Source: Escherichia coli (GTDB lineage Bacteria > Pseudomonadota > Gammaproteobacteria > Enterobacterales > Enterobacteriaceae). Taken from it: a stretch of DNA of 64,000 nt. The notes under the pieces were generated by a model. The model was given only the letters and a program-made list of their open reading frames with translations, searched no databases and had not been told where the DNA came from. Made by a program: the position numbers and the translations under genes. Shown one piece after another: positions 17,601 to 38,672 of the stretch. Within the stretch, counting starts at the first letter, position 1, and each line of letters begins with the position of its first letter. The stretch is from assembly GCF_009931435.1 (NCBI RefSeq), contig NZ_CP043414.1; one strand, 5' to 3'.

Positions 17601-18086
17601 TCCGGCTGACGTGCTGGCTGCGCGTGCTGAGCCTGCAGCATCAGTCGCATGGGTTGCCGCCTCACTGGCAGATGTGCTGGCATCGCCGGCTGACTTCTTC
17701 GCGGCTGCCGTGTTTTGTGCCACCGCGGACGCGTTACGCGCCACCTCTTCCACCATCAGTTCAAAACGGCGCAGAGCCTCCGGACGGGCATCATCCTCCG
17801 TCATGGCACCGAGAAAATCATTCAGCGTACCGGGTCGGGAATCTTCATACACGGTGATGGTCCCGGCATGTGACGGCGGGAATCCTTCCACCAACAGAAT
17901 AACGCTGTACTGACCGTACTCAACGTCCATGCTGTAACGCCCGGCTTCATCCGGATTTTCTGAGGCCAGCGTGTTCACCACCACCGCGGTGCTGTTACGT
18001 TTTGCTTTCAGCTGGATTGTGCAGTTCTGTACCGGTTTTCCTGTGCCGTCTTTCAGTACACCTGAAATCTTTACTGCCATATTCAC
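14679..18086 (-). CDS. stf: Side tail fibre protein Stf with Ala/Ser/Thr-rich repeat region and His-rich C-terminal repeats
   Basis: ORF track 1135 aa; N-terminus and C-terminal GAHTHS/GAHAHT repeats match lambda Stf by recall; central region differs. Confidence 0.85.
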
Positions 18087-18144
18087 CCCACAAAAAAGCC
18101 CGCCTGAACAGGCGGGCTGTCATAACACTGTGTTACCTGGCTAA

Positions 18145-18744
18145 TCAGAACTTATAACCGACACCCACGATGAAACCGTCAGTGCGCCAGTCGCCACTGC
18201 CGGAGCCTTCATAAGCAATATCAATGGCCACGGATTCGGTCGGGTTAAACTACACGCCAGCTCCCCACGCCAGAGACGTGTTGCTGTGGCGACCGTCATC
18301 ACTTCCGGTCAGCACGTCGTGCGTTTTCCCCTTGTTGTCAGTTACGCGGAGATAATCCCCGGAGAAAGTCGACACACGGCTGTAAGCCATACCCGCCATC
18401 GCATACGCGCTGAACCATTCATTCACGCGCACAGACGGCCCCACCATCACGCTGAACCAGCGGTTACGCACGGAATCTTCATGCCAGCGGGTATTGCTGT
18501 AACGGGTAAGCTGGCGATTCTTGTCTCCTGCATAGCTGAATGACGTCACCAGCCCCAGTGTGTCCGTAAACTCATAACGGTATTTCACGTTAATCCCGTT
18601 AAGATCATCGCTGCCGGGAACGTTCGTCGAGGCATGAAGATACCCCGCGCTCAGCGTGGACTGATGTTCAGATGCCCATGCAGGCGCACCGGATACGGTC
18701 AGACAAATGGCTGCGGACAAAATGGCGGCATAAAGTTTACGCAT
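18145..18744 (-). pseudogene. lom: Lom-family (Ail/Lom) outer membrane protein gene interrupted by an in-frame amber codon
   Basis: ORF track 18250..18744 (164 aa) ends at TAG; the same frame continues 35 codons to a beta-barrel-type C-terminus ...GVGYKF then TGA. Confidence 0.7.
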
Positions 18745-18813
18745 AATTACCTCTCGCTTTTCTGCAATAAAAAAGGCACCATTTCTGGTGCCCTTATATG
18801 GGTTATAACAATT

Positions 18814-21800
18814 TCAACGAATACTGATGCCGGAAGCGGCTTTTTTGGTCACAATCACCGTACAGTCGGTGATATTACCTGCCCACTGATTGCCTTTATG
18901 GAAAACCTTAAACTCCAGAGTGACGCTTCCCCTGCCACTCGGCATATCAATAACCGCACTGTAGCTACCGGGAATGGCCCCTTTAGTTTCTCTGGATGCG
19001 ATTAATACACCGTTTTTGCGAACTTCAAAACCATAACCCGTGTATCTTGTACCTCCCGGGTTATTACCACTTCCCGGATCGCTATACGCTATTCCGTTAA
19101 AGATAATGGGCGGAATAATGATTTGACGGTCAAAGTTATGATCATCGCTGATGGTGACTGTAACCGTCCCGTTTGGTGTTTCCGTGTTACCCCACGTACC
19201 AGCCTGTTTCGGAAATGATTTGGATACAGCTTTAACGAAGTCACCTCTGACCTGAGTCGCCTCCAGCATGCCCTTAATTGTACAGTTTTCATTTACCGTG
19301 ACATTGTTGAGCGTCCCGGCGTTCGCATTCACACTGCCACTGATATCCGCATTTTTAGCGGTCAGCTTTCCGTCTGATGTCAGGGAAAATACCGGTGGAT
19401 TTCCACCGCTGGTAATGGTGGGGGCCGTCAGGCGCTTCAGGAACACGTCGTTCATGAATATCTGGTTGCCCTGCGCCACAAACATCGGCGTTTCATTCCC
19501 GTTTGCCGGGTCAATAAACGCGATACGATTGGCGGCAACCAGAAACTGGCTCAGCTTGCCTTCCTCCGTGTCCTCCATGCTGAGGCCAATACCCGCGACA
19601 TAATGTTTGCCGTCTTTGGTCTGCTCAATTTTGACGCCCCACATCGCATTCCATTTATCGTTAGCGTCCTTCCACTCTTTCGAAAACTCATCCAGTCTGC
19701 TGGCGTTATCCTCCGTCAGATCAACTTTTTCCAGCAGCTCTTTACCGAGATGGGATTCGGTTATCTTGCCTTTGAAAAAATCCAGGTAACCTTCCGCATC
19801 ATCGCTCGCCCGACCAACAGCCTCCACGAATGCCGATTTGCCAACGGTGTTCACACTGCGAACGTAAAAATAATAATCATGGCCCGGTTTGATATTGATA
19901 CTGGCGGCTATCCAGTACAGTGCCGTACCAAGATAACGCGCGCTGGTTTCAACCTGCCTGATATCCGCAATCCGTTTTTCCGAGAACCAGAACTCAAACT
20001 GTACCGTCGGGTCATAAACCGCAAGATGCGGCGTGGCGGTTATCTGAAAATAGCCCGGCGTCAGCTCAATCCGCGACGGCGCTGCCGGTGCGGCAATCCG
20101 GAACGATACCGACGCCGGATCGCCCTGCTGTCCCCACGCATTTACCGCCCGGACTGTCAGCGTGTACCGTCCCAGCGCCAGTTGCGTGAAGCGGTATGTG
20201 GTTTCCGTCGTCCGGGCCGTGCTGACCAGCCGCTCACTGCCGTCATCCGCTGTTACGGTCAGACGGAGCAGGAAGCTCACGCCCTTCACCACCTTCGGCG
20301 TGTCCCAGCGCGCCAGCACCTGATATTCCCCGCTGTCTGCGGTGACTTCGGCAGTCAGGTGCTGCACCGCTGGCGGCGTGACACCATTCACCGTGCCGCT
20401 CTGGTCGCCGTCAAAGTGCGCCCCGTTATCCACGATGGCTTCTTTTTCCGGTACATGCTGCACGGCGGTGATGGCATACGTGCCGTCGTCGTTCTCACGG
20501 ATACTCACGCAGCGGAACAGGCGCTGGCGCAGCGTCGGCAGCTTCAGCCCCCACACGCTGTATTCAGCAACGCCGTCAGGAACACGGCTCACTTTCACCT
20601 TCACGCCGTCGGTGACGGACTGAACCTCCACGCTGACCGGATTGCCACTTCCGTCAACCAGGCTTATCAGCGTGGTACCGGAGGATGGCAGCGTGATTTC
20701 ACGGTCGAGCGTCAGCGTCCGGGTCTGGCTGTTTACCGCCAGCACGCGCCCGCCGGTGCTGATACCGGCATAGTCATCATCACAGATTTCAATGACATCG
20801 CCCGGCACATGGCGAAGCCCTTCTGCGCCCACGCTGAAGTCCACGGTCTGCGTTTCCAGCAGTTCTGTTTTAATCAGCCATAGCCCGGCGCGATGTGCCT
20901 GCCCCCGGCTGGTACAGCCAAAGGCATCCATCTTCGTGACGTTACGACCGTAACGGGCAATGGCCTGCGTGTCCTCCACAAGCTCTGTCGCCGTCTCCCA
21001 GCCGTTATTCGGGTCAATCCAGTTCACCTCAACGGCATTATGGCGGTCCTTCAGGGCGCTGAAGCTGTAGCGGAACGGCGCGCCATCATCCGGCATCACC
21101 ACATTACTGCGGTTATAGGTCCACACCTTATCCGATGGTCGGTCCTGCACGAACGTCAGCGTCTGCCCGTTCCATACCGGCATACAGCGCATCGCCGAGC
21201 AGAAATCACTGAGCACATCCCACGCCTTGCGCTGTGTGGTCAGGTACGCATTACAGGTGATGCGCGGCTCCGTGCCGCCAAAGCCGTCCGGCACTGACTG
21301 GTCGCAGTACTGGCCGATGACATACAGCGCCCATTTATCCACATCCGCCGCACCAAGACGTTTCCCCATGCCGTAGCGCGGATGGGTCAGCATATCCCAC
21401 AGACACCAGGCCATGTTGTTGCTGTATGCCGGTTTAAACGTTCCGTCCCAGATACCGCTGTATTGCCGCGTCTGCGGGTTATAGTTCGACGGCACCTGCA
21501 GAATGCGCCCGCGCAGATGATAATTACGGCTCACCTGCTGGCTGCCGAACTGCTCCGAATCCACCTGCACGCCGACCAGTGCCGTGTTCGGGTAGCCCTG
21601 TTTCACATCGATGATTTCGGTGTATGACGACCAGAGCGTTTTGTTCTGCAGCTGGTCTGTGGTGCTGTCCGGCGTCATCCTGCGCATCCGGATATTGAAC
21701 GGGCGCGGCGGCAGGTTACCCACCACCACCGAGGCCAGATACTGCGAGGTGGTTTTGCCCTTAATGGTGATGTCTTTTTCCGTCACCCAGCCACCATTAC

Positions 21801-22227
21801 GCTGGATCTGAACCAGCAGGCGGACTTCCGACGGATTCCTGTCCCCCTTTGAGGTGGTTTCCACCAGTGCCTGCACGCCGAAGGTAAAACGCAGTCGGTC
21901 AATGTTTGCCGACGTGATGGTCCGGGTGATCGGCGTGTCGTATTTCACTTCCGTACCCAGCACCGTCTCGGAGCCGGAGGATTCAAATCCCTCCGGCGGT
22001 GTCTGCTCCTGCTCACCGGCCCGGAACACCACCGTGACGCCGGAGATATTGGTATTCCCCTCACTGTCCAGCACTGGCGTACTGTTCAGCAGCACGCTTT
22101 TTAATCCATCCACCGGACCTTCAACCGGCCCTTCGCTGATGGCATCGATCACACTCAGCAACTGCGTGGACTTCAGGTTGTCCTTCGCTTCGCGCGGAGT
22201 ATGCCCCTTACTGCTGCCTTTACCCAT
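18814..22227 (-). CDS. J: Tail tip host specificity protein J
   Basis: ORF track 1137 aa; lambda gpJ-like; follows tail assembly genes. Confidence 0.93.
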
Positions 22228-22286
22228 TCCTCACGCTCCATAAACGACAAAACCGCCCGGAGGCGGTTTCACATAAACGTTTTTCA

Positions 22287-22958
22287 TCAGCGACCAATCA
22301 CCACAACCTGACCACCATCCCCTTCGTCTGCCGTGCTGATCTCCTGAGAGACCACCCGCGACCCCACGCGCATTTCACCGTACAGAACCGGCAGAACATT
22401 GCCCTGGGCAACCATGTTATCCAGTGAGGAGAAATAGGTGTTCTGTTTGCCGTTATCCGTTGTCTGTGTACGGGGAGTTCTGGCTTTCGGTGCCAGCATC
22501 TGCGCCACACCACCGAGCACCATACTGGCACCGAGAGAAAACAGGATGCCGGTCATACCACCGGCCCCAATGGCTGCCCCCCATGCTGCAAGGGTGGCCC
22601 CGGCGGTAAAGAATGATCCGGCAATGGCGGCAGCCCCCAGGACAATCTGGAATACGCCACCTGACTTGGCCCCGGCGACTCTGGGAACAATATGAATCAC
22701 AGCGCCATCAGGTAGAGTCTCATGTAACTGCGCCGTTAATCCGGACGTGCTGACATCCTGCCCGGCAATCCGTACCTGATACCAGCCGTCGCTCAGTTTC
22801 TGACGAAACGCCGGGAGCTGTGTGGCCAGCGCCCGAATGGCTTCAGCCCCCGTTTTCACACGAAGGTCGATGCGGCGGCCAAATCGTTGCAAATCCCCGT
22901 AAAGGCAGATGCGCGCCATGCCCGGTGACGCCAGAGGGAGTGTGTGCGTCGCTGCCAT
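22287..22958 (-). CDS. I: Tail assembly protein I
   Basis: ORF track 223 aa, same length as lambda gpI; position between K and J. Confidence 0.88.
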   Translation of the reverse strand: MAATHTLPLASPGMARICLYGDLQRFGRRIDLRVKTGAEAIRALATQLPAFRQKLSDGWYQVRIAGQDVSTSGLTAQLHETLPDGAVIHIVPRVAGAKSGGVFQIVLGAAAIAGSFFTAGATLAAWGAAIGAGGMTGILFSLGASMVLGGVAQMLAPKARTPRTQTTDNGKQNTYFSSLDNMVAQGNVLPVLYGEMRVGSRVVSQEISTADEGDGGQVVVIGR

Positions 22959-23599
22959 TTGTCGGTATACCTCTCTCGTTTGCTCAGTTGTTCAGGAATA
23001 TGGTGCAGCAGCTCGCCATCACCACAGTAAATGGCGGCATGATTCGGCACCGATGAACCAAAACAGCACAGCAGCACATCGCCCGGTTGTGCTGATGACA
23101 ACGGCACCTGATACAGCCCTGTGGCCTCCAGATTATCCAGATAGAGATTCTGACCGTGACGCCACCAGTCATCCTCGCGATGAAAATCCGGCATCTCAAT
23201 CCCCGCCAGATGATAAGCATCCCGGAATAGCGTGTAACAGTCCGTCACCCCGTGTTCAAAGCGCCGCCCGGTGAGATGCGGCACACAGCGGAACTTATGA
23301 ATCGTCCCCCGGCAGACCAGCCACCACGGCAAATCACTCTGCACCTGCAGCCGCCGGTCAGCCTCACTCAGCCAGGGCAGACCACCGGGGTGGCTGTGGA
23401 CCAGCGCCACAATCTCACCCTGCATCTCTGCCCGCAGCCAGTCCTCCGGCGACATCCGGAAATACTCCTCCGGCTCACCGGAGATATTCACGCAGGGAAA
23501 ATATCTTTCCCCTTCCGGCGTTCTCACCACGAAGCCGCACGACTCCGCTGGCGCACATCGCCGGGCGTGCGCCAGAATCGCTGATTCTGTCTCTGTCAT
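22856..23599 (-). CDS. K: Tail assembly protein K (NlpC/P60-type domain); 3' boundary uncertain
   Basis: ORF track 247 aa overlapping I; lambda gpK-like. Confidence 0.8.
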   Translation of the reverse strand: MTETESAILAHARRCAPAESCGFVVRTPEGERYFPCVNISGEPEEYFRMSPEDWLRAEMQGEIVALVHSHPGGLPWLSEADRRLQVQSDLPWWLVCRGTIHKFRCVPHLTGRRFEHGVTDCYTLFRDAYHLAGIEMPDFHREDDWWRHGQNLYLDNLEATGLYQVPLSSAQPGDVLLCCFGSSVPNHAAIYCGDGELLHHIPEQLSKRERYTDKWQRRTHSLWRHRAWRASAFTGICNDLAAASTFV

Positions 23600-23604
23600 G
23601 GGAT

Positions 23605-24303
23605 TTACTGCGAAAGTTTGTTAATGGAAAGGAAGCCGCCAAAGTTGCCGACATTATTGCGGAACTTACAGCCACTCAGGCATTTGCTGCATTTATCCTT
23701 CGTGATATCGGACGTCGGCTGATCATATTCATCCGCGACAGCCGGACCTTGATAACCGCACTCATCACCGCGATAGGTCCAGGTGCAGGTATTAGCCAGC
23801 ATGATGCGCCCCGGAAAAACGGCACCATCCGTTTCCGTCGGTGTGGACAACACAAAGGAGGCACTGACCGCACTCAGTTCGCTGCACTGCTCGATGCGCC
23901 AGCGGCTGATCACCTCCTGCTCCGGATCGGCGTCGCTGTTTCCGTTGACGAAGTTCACCGCATCCAGAAAACGGGCGTAAACCTTACGCCTGACCACCGT
24001 TCCGCCGACCAGACTCTGCAGGTCTTCCGCCATCCCCGTGACCATGCCGTGCAGGTTAGAAACCGTCAGTATCGGACGGGCAGCACTGCCCTTGCCGTTC
24101 AGTTCAAATCCCGTCCCCTGAATGGGGTATGCCTGATACTGCCGCCCCTGCCAGGTAACCGGCTCACCTTTTTCGTTTTGCTCATTACAGAAAAAATAAC
24201 GTTCTCCACCGACCTCTGTCAGGTCGATTTCCCAGAGCACCACGCTGGCCGACTGCTCCGCACGGGTGCATTCATTCAGTGTTTCCTGCCGGATATCCTG
24301 CAT
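23605..24303 (-). CDS. L: Minor tail protein L
   Basis: ORF track 232 aa; lambda gpL length and position. Confidence 0.9.
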   Translation of the reverse strand: MQDIRQETLNECTRAEQSASVVLWEIDLTEVGGERYFFCNEQNEKGEPVTWQGRQYQAYPIQGTGFELNGKGSAARPILTVSNLHGMVTGMAEDLQSLVGGTVVRRKVYARFLDAVNFVNGNSDADPEQEVISRWRIEQCSELSAVSASFVLSTPTETDGAVFPGRIMLANTCTWTYRGDECGYQGPAVADEYDQPTSDITKDKCSKCLSGCKFRNNVGNFGGFLSINKLSQ

Positions 24304-24632
24304 CAGTTCACCACCTGTTCAAACTCTGCGCTGAACTCAACACGCAGCATACTGACCCGCGACGACCATTTTGCGCAGGTCACCTTTATCTGCCGCCACT
24401 CATAAGGCGGCGTCCACAGAAAGGATTTCCAGCCCCCGTGCTCTTCCAGAAACGACTCCAGTACCGTGGCCTCCTCACGGGGGACAGAAAGCGTCACGCT
24501 GTACGTTTTCAGGTTGGCATTCAGCCCGGCAGGCGCTCGCTGGGAATAGCCATCACCAAAGCGCACCTTTCTTACAGAAGGGACCGAAGCCACATCCATA
24601 CCGGGTTTCACTTTCCAGCGGAAGGTCTTCAT
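24303..24632 (-). CDS. M: Minor tail protein M
   Basis: ORF track 109 aa; lambda gpM length and position. Confidence 0.9.
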   Translation of the reverse strand: MKTFRWKVKPGMDVASVPSVRKVRFGDGYSQRAPAGLNANLKTYSVTLSVPREEATVLESFLEEHGGWKSFLWTPPYEWRQIKVTCAKWSSRVSMLRVEFSAEFEQVVN

Positions 24633-27208
24633 CGTCCACCTCCGGAGAACAGGCCACCATCACGCATCTGTGTCTGAATTTCATCACGGGCACCCTTGCG
24701 GGCCATGTCATACACTGCTTTCATCATCTGTGGACCTGGCAGACCATTCGTACCGTCGTTCTGAATCACCACGTTGTTGTTCTGCTCAAACCTGATACCC
24801 TCTGAACGCCGCATTTGCGCCGGACTTCCGGTGCCACCGACATAACCGCCGGTGGCATAGCCGCGCATCAGCCGGTAGAGATTTCCCACGCCAATCCGGC
24901 TGGTTGCCTCCTTCGTGAAGACAAATTCACCACGGTGAACAATCCCCGCTGGCTCATATTTGCCGCCGGTTCCCGTAAATCCTCCGGTTGCAAAATGGAA
25001 TTTCGCCGCAGCGGCCTGAATGGCTGTGCCGCCTGACGCGGATGCGCCGCCACCAACAGCCCCGCCAATGGCGCTGCCGATACTCCCGACAATCCCCACC
25101 ATTGCCTGCTTAAGCAGAATTTCTGTCATCATGGACAGCACGGAGCGGGTGAAGCTGCGCCAGTTCTGCTCACTGCCGGTCAGCATCGCCGCCATATTCT
25201 GTGCAATACCATCAAAGGTCTGCGTGGCTGCACTTTTTACCTGCGACATACTGTCCGTGGCGCTCTCTTCCCACTCACTCCAGCCGGACTTCAGGCCTGC
25301 CATCCAGCTCCCGCGAAGCTGGTCTTCAGCCGCCCAGGTCTTTTTCTGCTCTGACATGACGTTATTCAGCGCCAGCGGATTATCGCCATACTGTTCCTTC
25401 AGGCGCTGTTCCGTGGCTTCCCGTTCTGCCTGCCGGTCAGTCAGCCCCCGGCTTTTCGCATCAATGGCGGCCCGTTTTGCCCGTTGCTGCTGTGCGAATT
25501 TATCCGCCTGCTGCGCCAGCGCGTTCAGGCGCTCCTGATACGTAACCTTGTCGCCAAGTGCAGCCAGCTGGCGTTTGTACTCCATCGTCTCATCTTTATG
25601 CGCCAGCAGGGATTTCTCCTGTGCGGACAGCTGGCGACGTTGTGCCGCCTCCTCCAGTACCGCGAACTGACTTTCTGCCTTCCACAAATCCCGGCGCTGC
25701 TGGCTGATTTTCTCATTTGCTCCGGCATGCTTCTCCAGCGTCCGGAGTTCAGCCTGAAGCGTCAGCAGGGCAGCATGAGCACTGTCTTCCTGACGATCGC
25801 CCGCAGACACCTTCACGCCGGACTGTTTCGGCTTTTTCAGCGTCGCTTCATAATCCTTTTTCGCCGCCGCCATCAGCGTGTTGTAATCCGCCTGCAGGAT
25901 TTTCCCGTCTTTCAGTGCCTTATTCAGTTCTTCCTGACGGGCGGTATATTTCTCCAGCGGCGTCTGCAGGCGTTCGTAAGCCTTCTGCGCCTCTTCGGTA
26001 TATTTCAGCCGTGATGCCTCAGACTCGACCCAGTCCTTTGCTGCCATCTCTCTGGCCTTTTCAAGATCGGCCTGCAACGTGGCGGCTGAAAGCCCAAGTT
26101 GCGCATTCGCTCTGTCCTCCCATGCTCCCCGGAGATTGGCAAGAAATGCTGAGGTTTTACCGCGCCGGTGGCTCCGGCTCTGATACCACTGCCATTTTTT
26201 GTCCGCCTCATCAAAAGCCTTTTCTGCTTTCTCCAGCATTCCCTGGGCAGTGTCCGGGCGACCAATATCCAGCACCGAATCCCACATGGATTTGAATGCC
26301 CGTGCTGTCCTGTCTGCCCAGGTCTCCAGCGTGCCCATGTTCTCTTTCAGGCGGCGGGTCTGGTCATCAAACCCTTTCGTTGCGGCCTCGTTCGCCGCCT
26401 GCAATGCCCCGGCTTCATCGCCGGAACGCTGCAACTGAGCAACATACGCAATCTGCTCCGCCGTCACGTTATGGAACTGGCGTGCCATCGCCGTCAGCCC
26501 CGACGTCGGGTCTGTGGTCAGCTTCCCGAAGGCTTCAGCGACCTTGTCCACCTCCACGCCGGATGCAGAGGAGAAACGCGCCACACTCTGGCTGATGGAC
26601 GCAATCTGAGCCTCACCGCTTACCCCCGCCTTAACCAGTGCGCTGAGTGACTCGCTGGTCTGGTTAAACGTCAGCCCTGCCGCCTGCCCGGCTCTGGACA
26701 GGACCAGCATGCGATCTGCCGTCAGACCCGACTGATTGCCGGAAAGGACCAGCGTTTTGTTGAAATCGGACAGGGTTGAGTTGCCCTGATACCAGGCATA
26801 CGCCAGCGCACCGGTCGCCACCGCCAGCGAGGTGGCCCCGACCATCGGCAGGGTGATCGCACCGGCAAGCCCCCTGAACATGGGGATCATCCCGCCGAAG
26901 GAGTCCTTAACCTGACCACCCTGTTGCAGCAGGATCAGCCACGGACTTTGCCCGCCTGCAAACTGCGTGGCCACGTCGGTGAACTGTGCAGGCAGCATAC
27001 GCATGGCGGCTTTATACTGCCCGACGGAAATCCCCGCTTTCTGTGCAGCCAGCGCCTGTCGGCTCAGCGACTGTTCAACGACTGCCGCTGTTTTTTTCGC
27101 ATCAGTTTCCGTACCGGAAAAATGACGCCTGACTCTGGCCATCTGCTCGTCAAATCTGGCCGCATCCAGACTTAAATCAACGACCAGATCGCCTACCGGT
27201 TCAGCCAT
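24629..27208 (-). CDS. H: Tail tape measure protein H
   Basis: ORF track 859 aa; coiled-coil/Ala-rich; downstream of G-T. Confidence 0.9.
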   Translation of the reverse strand: MAEPVGDLVVDLSLDAARFDEQMARVRRHFSGTETDAKKTAAVVEQSLSRQALAAQKAGISVGQYKAAMRMLPAQFTDVATQFAGGQSPWLILLQQGGQVKDSFGGMIPMFRGLAGAITLPMVGATSLAVATGALAYAWYQGNSTLSDFNKTLVLSGNQSGLTADRMLVLSRAGQAAGLTFNQTSESLSALVKAGVSGEAQIASISQSVARFSSASGVEVDKVAEAFGKLTTDPTSGLTAMARQFHNVTAEQIAYVAQLQRSGDEAGALQAANEAATKGFDDQTRRLKENMGTLETWADRTARAFKSMWDSVLDIGRPDTAQGMLEKAEKAFDEADKKWQWYQSRSHRRGKTSAFLANLRGAWEDRANAQLGLSAATLQADLEKAREMAAKDWVESEASRLKYTEEAQKAYERLQTPLEKYTARQEELNKALKDGKILQADYNTLMAAAKKDYEATLKKPKQSGVKVSAGDRQEDSAHAALLTLQAELRTLEKHAGANEKISQQRRDLWKAESQFAVLEEAAQRRQLSAQEKSLLAHKDETMEYKRQLAALGDKVTYQERLNALAQQADKFAQQQRAKRAAIDAKSRGLTDRQAEREATEQRLKEQYGDNPLALNNVMSEQKKTWAAEDQLRGSWMAGLKSGWSEWEESATDSMSQVKSAATQTFDGIAQNMAAMLTGSEQNWRSFTRSVLSMMTEILLKQAMVGIVGSIGSAIGGAVGGGASASGGTAIQAAAAKFHFATGGFTGTGGKYEPAGIVHRGEFVFTKEATSRIGVGNLYRLMRGYATGGYVGGTGSPAQMRRSEGIRFEQNNNVVIQNDGTNGLPGPQMMKAVYDMARKGARDEIQTQMRDGGLFSGGGR

Positions 27209-27635
27209 ACCGGACTCCTCCTGCGATCCCTTCTGATACTGTCATCAGCATTACGTCATCCTCCGTCATGTCCGCCACATCCGGGGAAGCGGGGATAACT
27301 TCATTCCCGTCCGGGCCAAAGCGGACACCTCCGGCAAGCCCTGCCGCTTTCTGCATCAGCACATCATCTTCAGGCTCTTCGTCAGCCTCGCGCCGGTTAA
27401 GCAGACTGAAATCCAGCGGATGCATATCCGGATCGCTGAAAAACAGGCTGAGCACGGTGTACGTCAGCCCGGAAAAGTGCATATCCAGCAGAACATCATG
27501 AAAATAATGGGTACTGTAAAAGCGGTGCCAGTCGGCATACTCCGTGGATGACATCCCGGCAAGCATGGCACGCCAGTCGGGTCGCCCCATCTCACGCGCC
27601 AGTTTCAGGGCAAAACTCAGCTCACCGTCGAACAC
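27201..27635 (-). CDS. T: Tail assembly protein T frame (expressed as G-T fusion by -1 frameshift)
   Basis: ORF track 144 aa in -1 frame relative to G, opening at the slippery site GGGAAAG (about 27635..27641). Confidence 0.82.
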   Translation of the reverse strand: MFDGELSFALKLAREMGRPDWRAMLAGMSSTEYADWHRFYSTHYFHDVLLDMHFSGLTYTVLSLFFSDPDMHPLDFSLLNRREADEEPEDDVLMQKAAGLAGGVRFGPDGNEVIPASPDVADMTEDDVMLMTVSEGIAGGVRYG

Positions 27636-28039
27636 TTTCCCGCAGAAACAGGCTCTGCAGGCCCGGCGTCCTCTGTCTGTTCAGGGGTATTATTCACAAC
27701 AAACTCATACATTCCGGACAGCCGGTACACCACGTTTTCAGCATGAGAAATTGCCTCTGTGGGCCAGGTGGTAAGCACTTCCTGTTCAATCTGTTTAACG
27801 GCTTCATTCATGGACGGCATCTGCGTCTTCTTCGGATGGTTATGCCACAGGGACATCGCCACCACACAAGCACCGGTTCTGATGACGTCTTCCACAGTAA
27901 CCTGCCGGTTGCTGTCTGACTCCGCCTGTTCTGCCTGCCGTTTCATCAGGGCGAGATGCTCAATACGCTGCAGGGCTGACAGTTCAGAAAGCGTGACGGT
28001 CACGCCGTTATGTTCAAATGATTCGGTTTTCAGGAACAT
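27617..28039 (-). CDS. G: Tail assembly chaperone G
   Basis: ORF track 140 aa; lambda gpG-like; slippery heptamer 7 codons before stop. Confidence 0.88.
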   Translation of the reverse strand: MFLKTESFEHNGVTVTLSELSALQRIEHLALMKRQAEQAESDSNRQVTVEDVIRTGACVVAMSLWHNHPKKTQMPSMNEAVKQIEQEVLTTWPTEAISHAENVVYRLSGMYEFVVNNTPEQTEDAGPAEPVSAGKCSTVS

Positions 28040-28054
28040 CGCTGACTCTCCGGA

Positions 28055-28825
28055 TTAACTGGCGGTGACGGTGATTTCTGCAACCGCAGCAAACTCACCA
28101 TTACCGGATACGACCGGAATGTTGACCTTACCTGCAGCAACGCCATTCACGGTGATGGTCATACCACTGACCGACACGGTGGCTTTTGTTTTATCCGCTG
28201 ACACCGCACGGAAGCTCTTGTCGGTTGCGCCTTCCGGCTGGAATGCCACGGTCAGCGTGGTGCTCTGCCCTTTCACCACCGAGGTGCTGGCAGGCGTCAC
28301 AGTCATGCCGGTTGTCGCCGTCACCGTGCTGCGATCTTCTGCCATCGACGGACGGCCCACATTGGTGACCTTCACCGTGCGGGTGATCACTTCCTTCGCC
28401 GTCACCGCCTTACCGATACTGCTGACCCAGCCGCGGAACACATCGACCGTGCCGTTCGGGAAGCGGATTTTATAGGCTCGGGTATCCCCTTCATTAAACC
28501 ACGCCAGCAGCGCCTGCTGCCCCTGCTCTCCGGGCATCCACGCCAGCGTGAAGCTGGTATCTCCGGCAGATTTCTGCCCCTGTCCGGTCGCGGTCCAGTC
28601 CGCATCTTCATCATCGAGATAACTGTCGTCATAGGACTCAGCGGTCAGTTCGCCGGGCGTCAGGTCTTTAACTTTAGCCAGACGCGACCAGTCAACGTCT
28701 GAAAGCGGGTTCGCATAAGGGTCACCGTTCCCCTTATAAACCCACAGTGTGGTCCCGGCCCCTTTCACCGGTGCCAGAGGATTTGGTGTTGGCATATCGT
28801 CCTCACATTTCATAGGTAATGACAT
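28055..28825 (-). CDS. V: Major tail protein V
   Basis: ORF track 256 aa; lambda gpV-like. Confidence 0.9.
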
Positions 28826-29198
28826 AAGTCAGATCGGCTGAACTCCACAGGCCCGCATCATCGTCGCGCCGGTAGTCATAGCCACTGGCCACCATACTGG
28901 TGATCAAATCTGACAGTGCCGGGATATCGCTCATCACCGGATAAATCCGGGACTCCATCCACGAATCCAGCTCTGAATCCGGCACCTGAGCAGGCAGGAA
29001 AACTTCAATATGCAGCTCCGCCTGCCAGGTATCGCTGTCCAGCTCTTCGCCCGTGTATTCAGCGCCGGTGAGATAAACGGCAACTGCCGGAAAATCCGCC
29101 TCATCAAAAACAGCGGGGCGACCATCAAAAAACGTCGCCCCGGTGTCATGCTTCTCCAGTGCATCCAGTACGGCTGCACGGAGTTCAGTATGTTTCAT
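28803..29198 (-). CDS. U: Tail terminator protein U
   Basis: ORF track 131 aa; lambda gpU length and position. Confidence 0.88.
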
Positions 29199-29773
29199 CG
29201 CTTTATTACCATCCTCAGTTGATGCTGCAGCGCATAGCCCAGCTCTTTCGGAAGACGCTCACGCCGTATCCGCTCAATATTCTGTTTAAACGCCGTGGTC
29301 AGCGGCACCGCCATCGGAATTTTCACCACATCAATGGGGTAACGATTTTTCCCGGCCACACGCTGCATAACATGCCAGCGGCCATTTTTCAGTTGCTGAA
29401 TAAACGCGCCGGGAATACGACGGTTTCCCACCACAAGCACGCTGCCGCCACCTTTCAGGGCTGAACGCTGCCCCTTTTTACGACGCCTGCGTCGGGACAG
29501 GACAATCCGCGCGTTACCCAGCTTTATTACGGGCAAATCCCCCCGGTTAACCTTGATTCTGGCCTGCGGATTTTTGACCGTGGCCCTTTTCAGCCTGGCC
29601 CTTTCCTTTACCAGTTTCCGGCGTACCTTTGTCTCACGGGCAACCTGTGACGCCGACTGCGATATCGCGGATGAAGCAACGCGGTTAATGGCCATTGCGG
29701 CGGCACCGGGCACCGCCGTTCTGCTGATACGGCTGAGGTTTTCAACGGCCTGCTCAAGACCTTTTATGGCCAT
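29195..29773 (-). CDS. Z: Tail completion protein Z
   Basis: ORF track 192 aa; lambda gpZ length and position. Confidence 0.85.
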   Translation of the reverse strand: MAIKGLEQAVENLSRISRTAVPGAAAMAINRVASSAISQSASQVARETKVRRKLVKERARLKRATVKNPQARIKVNRGDLPVIKLGNARIVLSRRRRRKKGQRSALKGGGSVLVVGNRRIPGAFIQQLKNGRWHVMQRVAGKNRYPIDVVKIPMAVPLTTAFKQNIERIRRERLPKELGYALQHQLRMVIKR

Positions 29774-29784
29774 ACATCCCCCTT

Positions 29785-30138
29785 TCAGCGGCGACGGTTA
29801 ACGGCAGGCGGTACGCCCCGCCCAAGCCAGAGATGACAGCTTCCGCCATCATCCGGCGAAATCCGGTCTATCCAGAAGTTTTCCTCACCGATGGTCAGCG
29901 TGTCGCCGCGCCGCAGCTGCCGCACATCATCAGTCCGGACAAACAGGAACGGGCTGGAGCCTTCAACGCGCACGCCCTGTCCGGCATAGCTGATATTTTC
30001 AGGATCATCAAAAACACCACGTATCACAGCACCGGACTGCTCACCGGATGTCATGGTGGCTGACGTTCCCATGTACCCGCGTATCGTTTCATCGGCGCGG
30101 GCAATGGCAGCATCGAACAGGTTATCGAAATCAGCCAC
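29785..30138 (-). CDS. FII: Head-tail connector protein FII
   Basis: ORF track 117 aa; lambda gpFII length and position. Confidence 0.85.
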   Translation of the reverse strand: MADFDNLFDAAIARADETIRGYMGTSATMTSGEQSGAVIRGVFDDPENISYAGQGVRVEGSSPFLFVRTDDVRQLRRGDTLTIGEENFWIDRISPDDGGSCHLWLGRGVPPAVNRRR

Positions 30139-30149
30139 AGCGCCTCCCG

Positions 30150-30545
30150 TTATTGCATTCTGGCCAGGCCGCGCTCTGTCATTTCAGCTGCCACACCGGC
30201 AGAGACACGGAACGCCGTTCCCGGCAGCACAAATGCCACAGCCTCATCCCGCGTGGCGTGAAGTGCATCAGTATGCAGCGTCACCAGTGCCACAACCGTG
30301 ACCAGATCAGCCGTATCAGTCACGGTATCCGGCTGCGCTGATACAACCTCATTTTCATGTCCGGTCAGCGCATTTTCCGGGCTGACAGATGTGTCCTGAC
30401 CAGCAGCGTCATCCGTGTCATCAAGCTCCTCTTCCAGCTCTGCCACACGGAGTGCCAGTTCTTCTTTCGTCCCCGTCAGGCTGACATCACGGTTCAGTTG
30501 CTCACCCAGCACCTGAAGACGGGCAATCAGTTCATCTTTCGTCAT
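30150..30545 (-). CDS. FI: DNA packaging protein FI
   Basis: ORF track 30150..30584; internal Met (MTKDEL...) start chosen. Confidence 0.78.
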   Translation of the reverse strand: MTKDELIARLQVLGEQLNRDVSLTGTKEELALRVAELEEELDDTDDAAGQDTSVSPENALTGHENEVVSAQPDTVTDTADLVTVVALVTLHTDALHATRDEAVAFVLPGTAFRVSAGVAAEMTERGLARMQ

Positions 30546-30586
30546 GGACTCCTCCACAGAGAGAAAATGGCCCCGAAGGGCCATGA

Positions 30587-31612
30587 TTACGCCAGTTGTA
30601 CGGACACGAACGCATCAGGATCAGCCAGCAGCATCAGCGGTGCTGACTGAATCATGGTGAACTCACGCGCCGGATCGCCGGTGGTCACCCAGTTTTTCGG
30701 GTAGCGGGCAGAGGCGTTAATACCTTCGCGCTGTGCGTCCGCATCCTGAATGCAGCCATAGGTGCGCAGACCGCGTGCCTGAGTGTTCCCCAGCACCATC
30801 GTGTTGTCCGGCAGGAAGTTCTTTTTGACGTCGTTTTCCACGTACTGTCCGGAATACACGACGATCGCCGTATCGCCATACATCCCCTTATAGGACACCG
30901 CTTCGCCCAGATCTTTTACCGCTGTCTCCAGCTCGGAATGAGAGCCGCGACGGGTATCCAGCTTCTCCTTGACGGCTTTGAAGGAACGGAACAGCGCCCA
31001 GCCTTTCGGATCAAACACGATGATATTCACCACACCGCTGGCGTTCAGCGCGTAGGCTTCGATATCGTCGGTCGGGTCATACGTGGACTTGTCACGCTTG
31101 CTCCACTCCGTACCGCCGGACTGCGTGATGTTGTTCGCCACACTGCGGCCCATATCCACTTCAACCGGATCGAAGGCTTCACCGGTCATGGTATATTTGC
31201 CCTTAAGCACGGCAGAAACGGCCTGCATCTCTTCGACCTGAGCAATGGCCAGCTCTTCGTCTCGCATGTTCTGCAGAATGATGCGACGGCGGCGGTAAGC
31301 CGGGTCCGCCAGATTCTGTGGATCTTCATCCGGCAGGCGACGCAGGGTCATCTGCGGATTCACCTCATGCTTCGGCTTGACATATCCCGGTGTAAATTCA
31401 GAGGTGGAGCCGCCACGGGAGCGGATAACCTCACCGGAAACAATCGGCGAAACGTACAGCGCCATGTTTACCAGTCCCGGAATTTGTGAGAGATAGACTT
31501 TCTCCGTGGTGAAGGGATAGCTCTCACGGAAAAAGAGACGCAGAAACAGCGGATCAAACTTAAATTTCTTCTCATTTGCCGCCAGCAGCTGGGCGGTTGT
31601 GTACATCGACAT
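30587..31612 (-). CDS. E: Major capsid protein E
   Basis: ORF track 30587..31639; start at MSMYTT gives 341 aa; lambda gpE-like. Confidence 0.9.
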   Translation of the reverse strand: MSMYTTAQLLAANEKKFKFDPLFLRLFFRESYPFTTEKVYLSQIPGLVNMALYVSPIVSGEVIRSRGGSTSEFTPGYVKPKHEVNPQMTLRRLPDEDPQNLADPAYRRRRIILQNMRDEELAIAQVEEMQAVSAVLKGKYTMTGEAFDPVEVDMGRSVANNITQSGGTEWSKRDKSTYDPTDDIEAYALNASGVVNIIVFDPKGWALFRSFKAVKEKLDTRRGSHSELETAVKDLGEAVSYKGMYGDTAIVVYSGQYVENDVKKNFLPDNTMVLGNTQARGLRTYGCIQDADAQREGINASARYPKNWVTTGDPAREFTMIQSAPLMLLADPDAFVSVQLA

Positions 31613-31667
31613 AAAAAAATCCCGTAAAAAAAGCCGCACAGGCGGCCTTTAGTGATGAAGGGTAAGG

Positions 31668-32000
31668 TTAAACGATGCTGATTGCCGTTCCGGCAAACGC
31701 GGTCCGTTTTTTCGTCTCGTCGCTGGCAGCCTCCGGCCAGAGCACATCCTCATAACGGAACGTGCCGGACTTGTAGAACGTCAGCGTGGTGCTGGTCTGG
31801 TCAGCAGCAACCGCCAGAATGCCAACGGCAGCACCGTCGGTGGTGCCATCCCACACAACCAGCTTACGGGTGGAGGTGTCCAGCATCAGCGGGGTCATTG
31901 CAGGCGCTTTCGCACTCAATCCGCCGGGCGCGGTTGCCGTATGTGCCGGGTCACTGTTGCCCAGCGGCTGGTAATGGGTAAAGGTTTCTTTGCTCGTCAT
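31668..32000 (-). CDS. D: Head decoration protein D
   Basis: ORF track 31668..32006; start at MTSKETF gives 110 aa. Confidence 0.9.
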
Positions 32001-32009
32001 AAACATCCC

Positions 32010-33309
32010 TTACACTGGTGTGTTCAGCAAATCGTTAACGGCATCAGATGCCGGGTTACCTGCAGCCAGCGGTGCCGGTGCCCCCTGCATCAGACGATCC
32101 AGCGCAGTGTCACTGCGCGCCTGTGCACTCTGTGGTGCAGCTGCCAGAATGCGGCGGGCCGTTTCCACGGTCATACCGGGGGTTTCGGCCAGCACGCGTG
32201 CCTGTTCTTCGCGTCCGTGAGCCTCCTCACAGTTGAGGATCCCCATAATGCGACTGTTTTCTGCCGCAACCGCTGCGGTGATCTGCGCGTTCACGTCCGG
32301 CTGCGCCGCGCTGGCGTTCTCGCCCTCCGTCGCTTGCACCACGCCAGTAACGTCAGCCTGCGAAGCAGTGGCTGAAACAGTTGTTGATTGAGTCTCTTTG
32401 GTCATTCGCCCTCCTGAGAGACGGGATTTACGTGCATCCAGTGCATCACGCATGACGGTGATCGCATCGGTACTGTTAACAAGTTCATCAGCCAGTCCGG
32501 CATCAATGGCCTCCTGACCGCTGTACACTGCAGCCTCGGTATCCAGCACAGCCTGCACGGACAGGCCGGTATATGCCGACACCTTCTGTGCAAACATCCG
32601 GCGGGTTGCATCCATCCGGGACTGCAGTGTTTCCCGGACATCATCCGGTAGATGGCTGTAGGGGTTGCCATCCACCTTATGGCTGCCGCTGTAAATCAGC
32701 GTGATTTCCACGCCCTGTTTCTCCAGCGCAGCACCGTAATTACTGTGAGCCATCATGACGCCGATGGAGCCTGTCCGGGCGGTCTGCGTGACCAGACGTC
32801 GGGAGGCGGCGCTGGCAAGCAACTGACCTGCACTGCAGTTCATGTCGTTGGCCAGCGCCCATACCGGCTTTATGTCACGCACACGGGCGATGATGTCAGC
32901 GCAGTCAAATGCCCCTGCCACCATCCCGCCTGGCGTATCCATATCGAGCAGAATGCCGTCCACCATCGGGTCGCTGGCAGCCTGTTGCAGACGGGCGATA
33001 ATGCCGTTGTAACCGGTCATCCCCGAATACGGCTGCAGCGCCCGTGTCCGGCTGACCAGCGTGCCGGAAACCGGCAGCACGGCGATGCCGTTCATGACCT
33101 GATAACTGCGGGCCTGTCGTGGTCCGTCATCATCAACGGATAACGCCAGCGCCGCGGGTGCCTCTCCGGCAGTCAGGCTGTCGCCGGATACCGCATCCGT
33201 CAGGCGGCTGATCCCAAGCTGGCCTGCAAGCGCACAAAAGAAAACCCGCGCATAGGCGGGTTCAAGCATCAGCGGCTCATTAAAGGCCATACTGGCAATA
33301 TGCGGGAGA

Positions 33310-33329
<20 letters not shown>
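32010..33329 (-). CDS. C: Capsid assembly protease C (scaffold Nu3 read from an internal in-frame start)
   Basis: ORF track 32010..33464; 439-aa product if initiated at a Val codon (probable GTG) at about 33329, overlapping the B stop; ClpP-like fold. Confidence 0.8.
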
Positions 33330-37010
<3,681 letters not shown>

Positions 37011-37036
<26 letters not shown>

Positions 37037-37556
37037 TCAGCAACCCCGGTATCAGTTCATCCAGCGCGGCTGCTTTGTTCATGGCTTTGATGATATCCCG
37101 TTTCAGGAAATCAACATGTCGGTTTTCCAGTTCCGGAAAACGCCGCTGCACCGACAGGGGGATCCCGTCGAGAATACTGGCAATTTCACCTGCGATCCGC
37201 GACAGCACGAAAGTACAGAATGCGGTTTCCACCACTTCAGCGGAGTCTCTGGCATTTTTCAGCTCCTGTGCGTCGGCCTGCGCACGCGTAAGTCGATGGC
37301 GTTCGTACTCAATAGTCCCTGGCTGGAGATCTGTCTCGCTGGCCTGCCGCAGTTCTTCAACTTCCCGGCGCAGCTTTTCGTTCTCAATTTCAGCATCCCT
37401 TTCGGCATACCATTTTATGACGGCGGCAGAGTCATAAAGCACCTCATTACCCTTGCCACCGCCTCGCAGAACGGGCATTCCCTGTTCCTGCCAGTTCTGA
37501 ATGGTACGGATACTCGCACCGAAAATGTCAGCCAGCTGCTTTTTGTTGACTTCCAT
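37011..37556 (-). CDS. Nu1: Terminase small subunit Nu1
   Basis: ORF track 181 aa; N-terminal HTH; immediately next to cos. Confidence 0.9.
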
Positions 37557-37733
37557 TGCTCATTCCACGGACAAAAACAGAGAAAGGAAACGACAGAGGC
37601 CAAAAAGCTCGCTTTCAGCACCTGTCGTTTCCTTTCTTTTCAGGGGGTATTTTAAATAAATACATTAAGTTACGACGAAGAAGAACGGAAACACCTTAAA
37701 CCGGAAAATTTTCATAAATAGCGAAAACCCGCG

Positions 37734-37746
37734 AGGTCGCCGCCCC
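37734..37746 (-). other. cos cohesive-end site (cosN; cosB lies between it and Nu1)
   Basis: Reverse complement of 37560..37760 matches the lambda left-end sequence GGGCGGCGACCTCGCGGGTTTTCGCTATTTATGAAAATTTTCCGG... by recall; about 190 bp from the Nu1 start. Confidence 0.75.
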
Positions 37747-37944
37747 GTAACCTGTCGGATCGCCGGAAAGGACCCACAAAATGATAATAATTATCATCTA
37801 CATGTCACAACGTGCATCTACGCCATCAAACCACGTCAAATAATCAATTATGACGCAGGTATCGTATTAATTGATCTGCATCAACTTAACGTAAAAACAA
37901 CTTCAGACAATACAAATCAGCGACACTGAATACGGGGCAACCTC

Positions 37945-38139
37945 ATGTCAACGAAGAACAGAACCCGCAGAACAACAACCCGCAACATCCGCTTTCCTAA
38001 CCAAATGATTGAACAAATTAACATCGCTCTTGAGCAAAAAGGGTCCGGGAATTTCTCAGCCTGGGTCATTGAAGCCTGCCGTCGGAGGCTAACGTCAGAA
38101 AAGAGAGCATATACATCAATTAAAAGTGATGAAGAATGA
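37945..38139 (+). CDS. ylcI: Small hypothetical protein (YlcI-like)
   Basis: ORF track 64 aa; position between cos and bor as in lambda/DLP12. Confidence 0.55.
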   Translation: MSTKNRTRRTTTRNIRFPNQMIEQINIALEQKGSGNFSAWVIEACRRRLTSEKRAYTSIKSDEE

Positions 38140-38303
38140 ACATCCCGCGTTCTTCCCTCCGAACAGGACGATATTGTAAATTCACTTAATTACGAGGGCA
38201 TTGCAGTAATTGAGTTGCAGTTTTACCACTTTCCTGACAGTGACAGACTGCGTGTTGGCTCTGTCACAGGTTAAGTAGTTTGAATGATTAGCAGTTATGG
38301 TGA

Positions 38304-38510
38304 TCAGTCAACCACCAGGGAATAATCCTTCATATTATTATCGTGCTTCACCAACGCTGCCTCAATTGCCCTGAATGCTTCCAGAGACACCTTATGTTCT
38401 ATACATGCAATTACAACATCAGGGTAACTCATAGAAATGATGCTATTAAGCATATTTTTTACACGAATCAGATCCACGGAGGGATCATCAGCAGATTGTT
38501 CTTTATTCAT
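38304..38510 (-). CDS. ybcW: Small hypothetical protein (YbcW-like)
   Basis: ORF track 68 aa; conserved position near cos. Confidence 0.55.
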
Positions 38511-38672
38511 TTTGTCGCTCCATGCGCTTGCTCTTCATCTAGCGGTTAAAATATTACTTCAAATCTTTCTGTATGAAGGTTTGAGCACGTTGGCCTTACA
38601 TACATCTGTCGGTTGTATTTCCCTCCAGAATGCCAGCAGGACCGCACTTTGTTACGCAACCAATACTATTAA

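What the first reader, a model, noticed from the sequence alone, without database searches (positions are those of the whole stretch)
27201..28039. Programmed -1 frameshift site for the G-T tail chaperone fusion
The slippery heptamer GGGAAAG lies 7 codons before the G stop (about 27635..27641, minus strand), and the T frame opens exactly there in the -1 frame. This predicts G and G-T products as in lambda.
Basis: partly seen in the sequence, partly recalled or inferred. Interest (0 to 1): 0.3.

Follow-up and report, generated by a model that had tools for sequence, protein, structure and literature searches.

The report
Lambda G/GT tail-chaperone frameshift site
This is the textbook programmed -1 ribosomal frameshift that makes the G and G-T tail-assembly chaperones of phage lambda, sitting here in a near-identical lambda-like prophage of E. 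coli, so it is real but entirely ordinary.

Summary
GGGAAAG lies at 27641..27635 (minus strand) in the register G GGA AAG of a 140-codon gene G (27617..28039). The heptamer starts 7 codons before the G stop and is the only in-frame slippery heptamer in the 61-nt G/T overlap. The -1 frame runs on for 144 more codons to 27201. The region is 97.9% identical to phage lambda, and 99 nt around the site (28 nt upstream to 64 nt downstream) are identical. The predicted 279-aa GT protein is 272/279 identical to lambda's, with the T part 100% identical. G and T meet the NCBIfam equivalog models. In 167 related loci a slippery heptamer (GGGAAAG, GGAAAAG or AAAAAAG) occupies the same column while the flanks, the G stop position and lambda's nominal 'T start' GTG all vary. 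One correction: the -1 frame is open from 27680, 13 codons upstream of the heptamer, and only the first start-like codon sits at the site. A possible hairpin 8 nt downstream was tested and remains unproven; a 2014 study had already rated a hairpin predicted there as no better than background. Context: a full-length lambdoid prophage at the argU (DLP12) site. Verdict: already known, low interest. Its practical use is annotation, because T should be joined to G by ribosomal slippage.

The parts
27617..28039 (-). Gene G (tail assembly chaperone gpG), 140 codons plus TGA stop at 27619..27617. This is the zero-frame product.
   Evidence: ORF list and translation. PF06894 E=5.9e-59. TIGR01674 equivalog, 211.8 bits against a cutoff of 74.45. 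Seven substitutions relative to lambda G.
27635..27641 (-). Slippery heptamer G GGA AAG (G codons 134-135, Gly-Lys). This is the site of the -1 shift; after the shift it is read as GGG AAA and then GTG.
   Evidence: Pattern search. Register and uniqueness in the overlap. Identical to lambda. The same alignment column holds a slippery heptamer in 167/167 related loci. Lambda site as stated in PMC3296357 Table 1 and PMC7618472.
27201..27680 (-). The -1 ('T') reading frame: stop-free from 27680, stop codon at 27203..27201. From 27635 it encodes the 144-residue T extension of GT. The predicted GT of 279 aa is 28039..27635 joined to 27635..27204, with base 27635 read twice.
   Evidence: Frame translation. 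Frame limits. PF06223 and TIGR01715 equivalog, 185.8 bits against 77.35, on residues 140-245 of the fusion. T part 100% identical to lambda.
27620..27680 (-). G/T overlap (61 nt). Only within this stretch can a -1 shift fuse G to T.
27633..27635 (-). GTG, the nominal 'start' of T in the lambda GenBank record and in PGAP annotation. It is probably not an initiation codon.
   Evidence: Annotated T CDS in J02459 and RefSeq genomes. The codon is GTG in only 13 of 57 distinct relatives; the rest have GCC, GTC, GCA, GCG or GTA.
27558..27626 (-). Candidate downstream RNA hairpin. A 7-bp outer helix starts 8 nt after the heptamer, followed by an internal loop and a ~14-bp inner helix. Its function is unproven.
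   Evidence: MFE -38.7 kcal/mol, z=-2.5 against dinucleotide shuffles. RNAalifold consensus. Synonymous-recoding z from -0.6 to -2.4. No significant synonymous-site constraint, p=0.31. Sharma et al. 2014 rated a hairpin predicted downstream of the gpG site as no better than the local average.
28055..28825 (-). Upstream neighbour: major tail protein V (context). Lambda's own annotated V start corresponds to a shorter ORF.
24629..27208 (-). Downstream neighbour: tape measure protein H, 859 aa (context). Its ATG overlaps the end of T by 8 nt.

Best explanation
This is the phage lambda G/GT programmed -1 ribosomal frameshift signal, carried by a lambda-like prophage. Ribosomes translating gene G reach G GGA AAG with tRNA-Gly on GGA in the P site and tRNA-Lys(mnm5s2UUU) on AAG in the A site. 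In a few percent of passages both tRNAs slip back one base and re-pair with GGG and AAA. Translation then continues in the -1 frame past the G stop and yields the 279-aa fusion gpGT. The remaining ribosomes terminate five codons later and yield the 140-aa gpG. G and the G part of GT coat the tape measure protein H. The T part recruits the major tail protein V. The fixed ratio of about 30:1 is needed for tail assembly, and neither protein ends up in the virion. Shown here: the sequence anatomy, the near-identity with lambda, family membership, and conservation of the slip site across relatives. Inferred from the lambda literature: the shift frequency, the tRNA mechanism and the chaperone function. 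Bare GGGAAAG gives about 0.3% in E. coli reporters, so the native ~4% probably also depends on the immediate 3' context, and perhaps on a downstream hairpin.
For: Heptamer present, in register and unique in the overlap. 97.9% DNA identity to lambda over G-T, and an identical sequence around the site. V-G-T-H synteny. Pfam and NCBIfam equivalog matches for both halves of the fusion. GT is 272/279 identical to lambda GT. In-frame X_XXA_AAG heptamers are rare, about 0.002 per 20-codon overlap. In 167 related loci exactly one slippery heptamer sits at the same column (GGGAAAG 80, GGAAAAG 82, AAAAAAG 5), while the upstream sequence diverges and the G stop moves from 7 to 3 codons in 37 loci. There is no conserved start codon for T. 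One record, phage LLS, explicitly annotates the joined CDS and the frameshift site. Literature: lambda GGGAAAG G/GT, zero frame kept ~96% of the time, tRNA-Lys U34 thiolation modulates it (PMC3296357); 30:1 ratio and chaperone roles (PMC5009743); G_GGA_AAG is among the most shift-prone motifs in E. coli, and the gpG cluster is listed as a true PRF case with motif end 135, fusion 279 and zero frame 141 (PMC4066793). The late operon is 97.5% identical over 99% of its length to phages deposited as complete genomes (PhiR30_1 and others), and the neighbouring tail ORFs are open.
Against: Nothing in the sequence argues against it. Limits: no protein or ribosome-profiling data exist for this prophage. 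Whether it is inducible is unknown. The measured efficiency comes from lambda, not from this allele, although the site and 64 nt downstream are identical. The gap between the bare-motif rate (0.28%) and lambda's ~4% is not explained by any feature demonstrated here.
Confidence: 0.95

Rival explanations
1. T is an independent gene translated from its own start codon, the GTG at 27635, as drawn in the lambda GenBank record and by PGAP. On this view the heptamer is incidental.
For: J02459 and RefSeq E. coli genomes annotate T as a separate 144-aa CDS starting at that GTG.
Against: The GTG is present in only 13 of 57 distinct relatives; the others have non-start codons there. Other annotators pick different, arbitrary downstream ATGs for T. 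No SD-like motif lies 6-17 nt upstream of the heptamer in any of the 57 sequences. The T-frame peptide is conserved from the very first codon after the heptamer. The literature states that GT arises by frameshift.
Confidence: 0.02
2. The fusion arises by transcriptional slippage, with RNA polymerase deleting or adding a base in the G or A run, and not by ribosomal slippage.
For: Some relatives carry AAAAAAG, a run of six A. Transcriptional slippage is known on longer homopolymer runs (reviewed in PMC5009743).
Against: Here the runs are only GGG and AAA, which is far shorter than the runs that support polymerase slippage (own knowledge). The strict conservation of the codon register X XXY YYZ and of the final AAG is what tRNA re-pairing predicts, not polymerase slippage. 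tRNA-Lys modification changes the lambda GT:G ratio (PMC3296357).
Confidence: 0.01
3. The signal is intact but idle, because the prophage is cryptic or never induced, as with DLP12 in K-12. On this view G and GT are not made in this strain.
For: The prophage sits at the DLP12 (argU/intD) site and carries DLP12-type early genes (ybcK, emrE, quuD, essD, rrrD). Related prophages in other strains carry frameshifted tail genes, for example L in NZ_CP041392.
Against: In this window H, M, L, K, I and J are all open and of lambda-like length. The late operon is 97.5% identical over 99% of its length to phages deposited as complete genomes. Integrase, repressor, replication, lysis and packaging genes are all represented. 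This rival concerns expression only, not the nature of the site.
Confidence: 0.15
4. The shift is boosted by a dedicated downstream RNA hairpin (27558..27626) acting as a classical stimulator. This adds to the main explanation and does not replace it.
For: The stem starts 8 nt after the heptamer. MFE z=-2.5. Native sequences fold better than synonymous recodings in all 11 lineages tested. 95% of pair cells are paired, with one G-C to A-U exchange that separates two clades. Bare GGGAAAG gives 0.28% against lambda's ~4%.
Against: Each recoding test is marginal (p 0.02-0.28) and the lineages are related. Two pairs are broken in 21 and 28 of 57 sequences, and paired third positions are not significantly less variable than unpaired ones (p=0.31). 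The region encodes the most conserved part of T, which can explain the conservation. Sharma et al. 2014 found no reduced synonymous variability for the gpG cluster and scored a hairpin predicted downstream of the site at ddG/nt 0.020, below their 0.09 threshold. The immediate 3' context alone can raise such motifs about 12-fold, to ~3.7%.
Confidence: 0.2

Closest known systems
Bacteriophage lambda genes G and T, gpG/gpGT -1 programmed frameshift (Levin, Hendrix and Casjens 1993; Xu, Hendrix and Duda 2004, 2013, 2014)
   Same: The heptamer, register and distance to the stop are the same, as are the 99 nt around the site, the V-G-T-H order and the 140-aa and 279-aa product lengths. The T extension is 100% identical.
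   Different: There are seven amino-acid substitutions in G (K46Q, F47V, A51V, F58C, L59V, Q69K, A117T) and about 2% DNA divergence. It resides in a prophage at argU with DLP12-type early genes, not at attB-lambda.
Tail assembly chaperone frameshift of Sakai-type Stx prophages (VT1-Sakai G/T; Sharma et al. 2014 cluster A_AAA_AAG_25, ECs1801)
   Same: Homologous G and T proteins, the slip site at the same alignment column, and the stop 7 codons later.
   Different: The heptamer is A AAA AAG. The G protein is only about 50-57% identical and T is shorter.
N15 / HK225 / mEp043 / LLS-type G-T frameshift
   Same: Homologous genes, the same column, the same downstream T N-terminus, and an explicit frameshift annotation in the LLS record.
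   Different: The heptamer is G GAA AAG, which is not a strict X XXY YYZ, so the P-site tRNA re-pairs imperfectly. In one sub-clade the G stop lies only 3 codons after the heptamer start.
Stimulated bacterial -1 PRF signals on X_XXA_AAG (dnaX, IS911, IS3)
   Same: The same kind of tandem slip, driven by tRNA-Lys on A_AAG (PMC4066793, PMC5009743).
   Different: Those signals have demonstrated upstream SD and/or downstream hairpin or pseudoknot stimulators and much higher efficiency. Here no SD is present (0/57) and the hairpin is unproven.

Membership tests
Lambda-type G/GT tail assembly chaperone frameshift | Two overlapping ORFs lying between the major tail protein gene and the tape measure gene | tested here: met
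   V 28055..28825, G 27617..28039, T frame 27201..27680 and H 24629..27208, all on the minus strand. The order matches lambda and PGAP-annotated genomes.
Lambda-type G/GT tail assembly chaperone frameshift | The upstream ORF is a gpG-family chaperone | tested here: met
   PF06894 at 197.8 bits (cutoff 27). TIGR01674 equivalog at 211.8 bits (cutoff 74.45).
Lambda-type G/GT tail assembly chaperone frameshift | The -1 frame encodes the T domain and has no conserved initiation codon of its own | tested here: met
   PF06223 and TIGR01715 equivalog (185.8 bits, cutoff 77.35) on the -1 frame part. The nominal GTG is present in only 13 of 57 distinct relatives.
Lambda-type G/GT tail assembly chaperone frameshift | A slippery heptamer in zero-frame register X XXY YYZ inside the overlap, near the 3' end of G | tested here: met
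   G GGA AAG at 27641..27635 is the only such heptamer in the 61-nt overlap, and it starts 7 codons before the stop.
Lambda-type G/GT tail assembly chaperone frameshift | The slip site is conserved among homologues while the surrounding sequence diverges | tested here: met
   All 167 loci carry one heptamer at the same column, in three sequence variants. The upstream flank is poorly conserved and the stop position is variable.
Lambda-type G/GT tail assembly chaperone frameshift | Two products, gpG and gpGT, are made at about 30:1 (about 4% shifting) | not testable with these tools
   Established for lambda (PMC3296357, PMC5009743). Inferred here from the identical site and context.
Lambda-type G/GT tail assembly chaperone frameshift | Both products are required for tail assembly and are absent from virions | not testable with these tools
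   Literature on lambda only.
Stimulator-dependent bacterial -1 PRF (dnaX / IS3-family type) | A Shine-Dalgarno-like sequence 6-17 nt upstream of the motif | tested here: not met
   None of the 57 distinct sequences has GGAG, GAGG, AGGA or GGGG in that interval. Sharma et al. also score SD = N for gpG.
Stimulator-dependent bacterial -1 PRF (dnaX / IS3-family type) | A downstream hairpin or pseudoknot 5-9 nt after the motif, supported by covariation or synonymous-site constraint | tested here: inconclusive
   A hairpin with an 8-nt spacer is predicted and mostly conserved. Synonymous recoding z is only -0.6 to -2.4 and the third-position test gives p=0.31. A published analysis gives ddG/nt 0.020, below its threshold.
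Transcriptional slippage sites | A long homopolymeric run at the site | tested here: not met
   The runs are only GGG and AAA.

The most novel reading that the evidence does not exclude
The bipartite hairpin at 27558..27626, starting 8 nt after the heptamer, could be a genuine selected stimulator. Together with the invariant pyrimidine 3' of the heptamer, it would raise shifting from the ~0.3% of bare GGGAAAG to the ~4% needed for the 30:1 G:GT ratio across lambda-like phages. As far as I could find, no stimulator has been demonstrated experimentally for the lambda site.
Probability: 0.15. Interest if true: 0.3.

Novelty: already known. Interest (0 to 1): 0.08.

Why it matters
The biology is a textbook case, so the value here is practical. 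It confirms that this prophage carries an intact tail-chaperone recoding signal. It also flags a common annotation error: GenBank lambda and PGAP list 'T' as a free-standing 144-aa protein starting at a GTG that is not conserved. The real product is the 279-aa GT fusion, which should be annotated as a join with ribosomal slippage at 27635. Homologues of this region occur in 3,704 of 5,426 complete E. coli genomes, so the correction applies widely. The one open question is what raises the bare-motif rate about tenfold in the native context.

Tried and rejected
1. A downstream hairpin as stimulator. I folded the window sequence, counted pairs on 11 and then 57 distinct sequences, and ran synonymous-recoding controls in 11 lineages and synonymous-site profiles along T. 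The results are suggestive but not significant, and a published analysis reached the same conclusion. It is kept only as a low-probability add-on.
2. An upstream SD-like stimulator: absent in 57/57 sequences.
3. Rfam: no family covers the site at either the gathering or a permissive threshold.
4. PDB by sequence: no solved structure of G or GT.
5. Independent initiation of T at the GTG: rejected because the codon is not conserved.
6. Transcriptional slippage: rejected because the runs are too short.
7. Primary papers: Xu et al. 2013 (PMC3762263) is not held, and I could not obtain the text of Levin et al. 1993. My recollection that Levin et al. reported no obvious downstream stem-loop is therefore unverified and is not used as evidence.
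8. Raw genome-wide enrichment of GGGAAAG is not significant (12 found, 7.4 expected). The signal lies in the frame and position, not in the count.
Full report
OBSERVATION. On the minus strand, an ATG at 28039 opens a 140-codon ORF that ends with TGA at 27619..27617. GGGAAAG occurs at 27641..27635. Counting codons back from the stop gives GC[G GGA AAG] TGT TCG ACG GTG AGC TGA. The heptamer is therefore in the X XXY YYZ register of the G frame. After a -1 slip the reading is GGG AAA GTG TTC GAC GGT GAG CTG ..., and it stays open to the stop at 27203..27201. One detail needs correcting. The stop-free -1 frame begins at 27680, 13 codons upstream of the heptamer, so the overlap in which a shift could fuse the two frames is 61 nt. 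What lies 'exactly there' is only the first start-like codon, GTG at 27635. The heptamer is the only in-frame XXXYYYZ in that overlap.

CHANCE. GGGAAAG in any frame is not enriched in the window: 12 occurrences against 7.4 expected, and 8 of 100 shuffles do as well. In-frame X_XXA_AAG heptamers are rare, at 2 in 19,209 codon positions of long open frames. That gives about 0.002 for one in a given 20-codon overlap, against about 0.07 for any XXXYYYZ. Position and frame carry the signal, not the count.

IDENTITY. The 1.1-kb region is 97.7% identical to phage lambda J02459, and the 839-nt G-T span is 97.9% identical. It is up to 99.5% identical to other lambdoid phages. In a 171-nt alignment the window, lambda and HK630 differ at five upstream columns only. 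From 28 nt before the heptamer to 64 nt after it the three are identical. The gene order V-G-T-H matches lambda. G matches PF06894 and the equivalog TIGR01674. The -1 extension matches PF06223 and the equivalog TIGR01715, all far above the curated cutoffs. The predicted 279-aa fusion is 272/279 identical to lambda's. All seven substitutions lie in G, and the T part is identical. No solved structure matches by sequence.

COMPARATIVE TEST. I collected annotated phage records spanning 72-99% DNA identity and 160 IMG/VR loci found with two GT protein alignments. In every one of the 167 loci where the site could be placed, exactly one slippery heptamer sits at the same alignment column: GGGAAAG in 80, GGAAAAG in 82 and AAAAAAG in 5. 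Sequence upstream of the heptamer diverges quickly. The G stop lies 7 codons after the start of the heptamer in 130 loci and 3 codons after it in 37, so the slip site is conserved and its distance to the stop is not. The codon that lambda's record uses as the 'T start' (GTG) is present in only 13 of 57 distinct sequences. The others have GCC, GTC, GCA, GCG or GTA, none of which can initiate. Annotators of other phages chose assorted downstream ATGs for T. The LLS record annotates the joined CDS and names the frameshift site. This pattern is what a recoding site predicts, and it argues against an independently initiated T.

MECHANISM. The mechanism comes from the literature, not from this work. 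Lambda's G/GT site is G_GGA_AAG. The zero frame is kept about 96% of the time. The A-site tRNA-Lys (mnm5s2UUU) decodes both AAG and AAA, and loss of its thiolation raises shifting and harms the phage (PMC3296357; PMC7618472). The G:GT ratio of about 30:1 is critical. G and the G part of GT bind the tape measure protein, the T part binds the major tail protein, and neither is in the virion (PMC5009743, citing Levin et al. 1993 and Xu et al. 2004, 2013, 2014). G_GGA_AAG is among the three most shift-prone heptamers in E. coli. In reporters it gives 0.277% alone, 3.8% with the IS911 stimulators and 43% with the IS3 pseudoknot (PMC4066793). That paper lists cluster G_GGA_AAG_4 as gpG, a 'true' case with the motif ending at residue 135, a fusion of 279 aa and a zero frame of 141 codons. 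Those are exactly the numbers found here.

A STIMULATOR? The bare motif gives about 0.3% and lambda about 4%, so I looked for stimulators. No SD-like motif lies 6-17 nt upstream in any of the 57 distinct sequences. Downstream, the window RNA folds into a bipartite hairpin whose outer helix starts 8 nt after the heptamer (27558..27626), with MFE -38.7 kcal/mol and z=-2.5 against dinucleotide shuffles. RNAalifold recovers it across relatives. On 57 sequences, 95% of pair cells are paired, against 23-41% when the partners are slid. That control is biased, because the structure was derived from these same sequences. One G-C to A-U exchange separates the two large clades, but two pairs are broken in 21 and 28 sequences. 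The region also encodes the most conserved part of T (LAREMGRPDWRAMLAG), so the key controls concern synonymous sites. Native sequences fold better than synonymous recodings in all 11 lineages tested, but only marginally (z -0.6 to -2.4, p 0.02-0.28), and the lineages are related. Paired third positions are not significantly less variable than unpaired ones (7/11 against 9/10 variable, p=0.31). Sharma et al. reached the same verdict for this gene cluster: no reduced synonymous variability, a hairpin in 51% of genes with a 7-nt spacer, and ddG/nt of 0.020 ± 0.095, below their 0.09 threshold. They also note that the immediate 3' context alone can raise such motifs about 12-fold, to ~3.7% (citing Bertrand et al. 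2002). In my set the base after the heptamer is a pyrimidine in 57 of 57 sequences, although the coding of Val or Ala there could explain that as well. I therefore treat the hairpin as unproven, at about 0.15-0.2. No Rfam family covers the site.

CONTEXT. The window is E. coli chromosome. The order is cusS-nfrB-nfrA-ybcH-envY-ompT-appY, then a prophage of about 45 kb running from the tail-fibre genes through J, H, T, G, V, the head genes, terminase, lysis genes, quuD, rusA, ybcK, emrE, replication genes, repressor, gam/bet/exo and intD. This is followed by tRNA-Arg(UCU) at 58383..58459 and then fimZ and the sfm genes. It is thus a full-length relative of the defective DLP12 prophage with a lambda-type late operon. 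The late operon (20000..44000) is 97.5% identical over 99% of its length to phages deposited as complete genomes, such as PhiR30_1. H, M, L, K, I and J are all open. Homologues of the G-T region occur in 3,704 of 5,426 complete E. coli genomes, with a median of two per genome. PGAP annotates G and T as separate CDSs.

VERDICT. The feature is the already known lambda G/GT frameshift, so interest is low. The practical use is correct annotation of GT. The only residual question is what raises the bare-motif rate about tenfold in the native context. I could not read Levin et al. 1993 or Xu et al. 2013 directly, so statements about them rest on the reviews cited above.

Noticed in passing
window ~12600..58460: A full-length lambdoid prophage of about 45 kb is integrated at tRNA-Arg(UCU) argU with intD. 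This is the DLP12 site, between appY/ompT and fimZ/sfm. It combines DLP12-type early and cargo genes (ybcK, emrE, quuD, rusA, essD, rrrD) with a complete lambda-type head and tail operon. In K-12 only a remnant is left at this site.
   Followed up: partly
window 14138..14336 (-): Full-length match to Rfam RF02111 'IS009' (227.8 bits, gathering score 117). It overlaps the 14095..14679(-) ORF that lies immediately downstream of the side tail fibre gene, probably a tail fibre assembly gene (not checked).
   Followed up: no
L135-L171 (IMG/VR loci), heptamer at about locus position 1600: In 37 of 167 related loci the G stop is a TAG only 3 codons after the heptamer start (G GAA AAG CCC TAG) instead of 7. 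gpG then ends one residue after the slip site. The slip site is fixed and the stop is not.
   Followed up: partly
L007-L010, L092-L171: About half of the relatives use GGAAAAG (G GAA AAG), which is not a strict X XXY YYZ. The P-site tRNA-Glu would re-pair on GGA with a mismatch. The LLS GenBank record annotates it as the frameshift site.
   Followed up: partly
window 27634 (-), and column 38 of the 57-sequence set: The base immediately 3' of the heptamer is a pyrimidine in 57 of 57 distinct sequences (C 36, U 21). This could reflect the published 3'-context effect on -1 shifting, or only the coding of Val or Ala in T.
   Followed up: partly
window 24629..27208 (-): The tape measure protein H is 859 aa here, against 853 aa annotated in lambda. 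If tail length scales with H length, the tail would be very slightly longer.
   Followed up: no
window 45621..45627 (-): A second in-frame GGGAAAG lies in the 265-aa ORF 44940..45737 (ybcM-like HTH regulator), 228 codons before its stop. It is probably a chance occurrence.
   Followed up: no
literature: PMC3296357: The body text of Maynard et al. 2012 prints the lambda slippery sequence as GGGTTTG (codons GGT-TTG), while its Table 1 gives GGGAAAG. The table agrees with the sequence.
   Followed up: yes
window 27201..28039 (-): No entry in the PDB matches lambda-type G or GT by sequence, so this well-studied chaperone pair appears to have no solved structure detectable by sequence search.
   Followed up: partly
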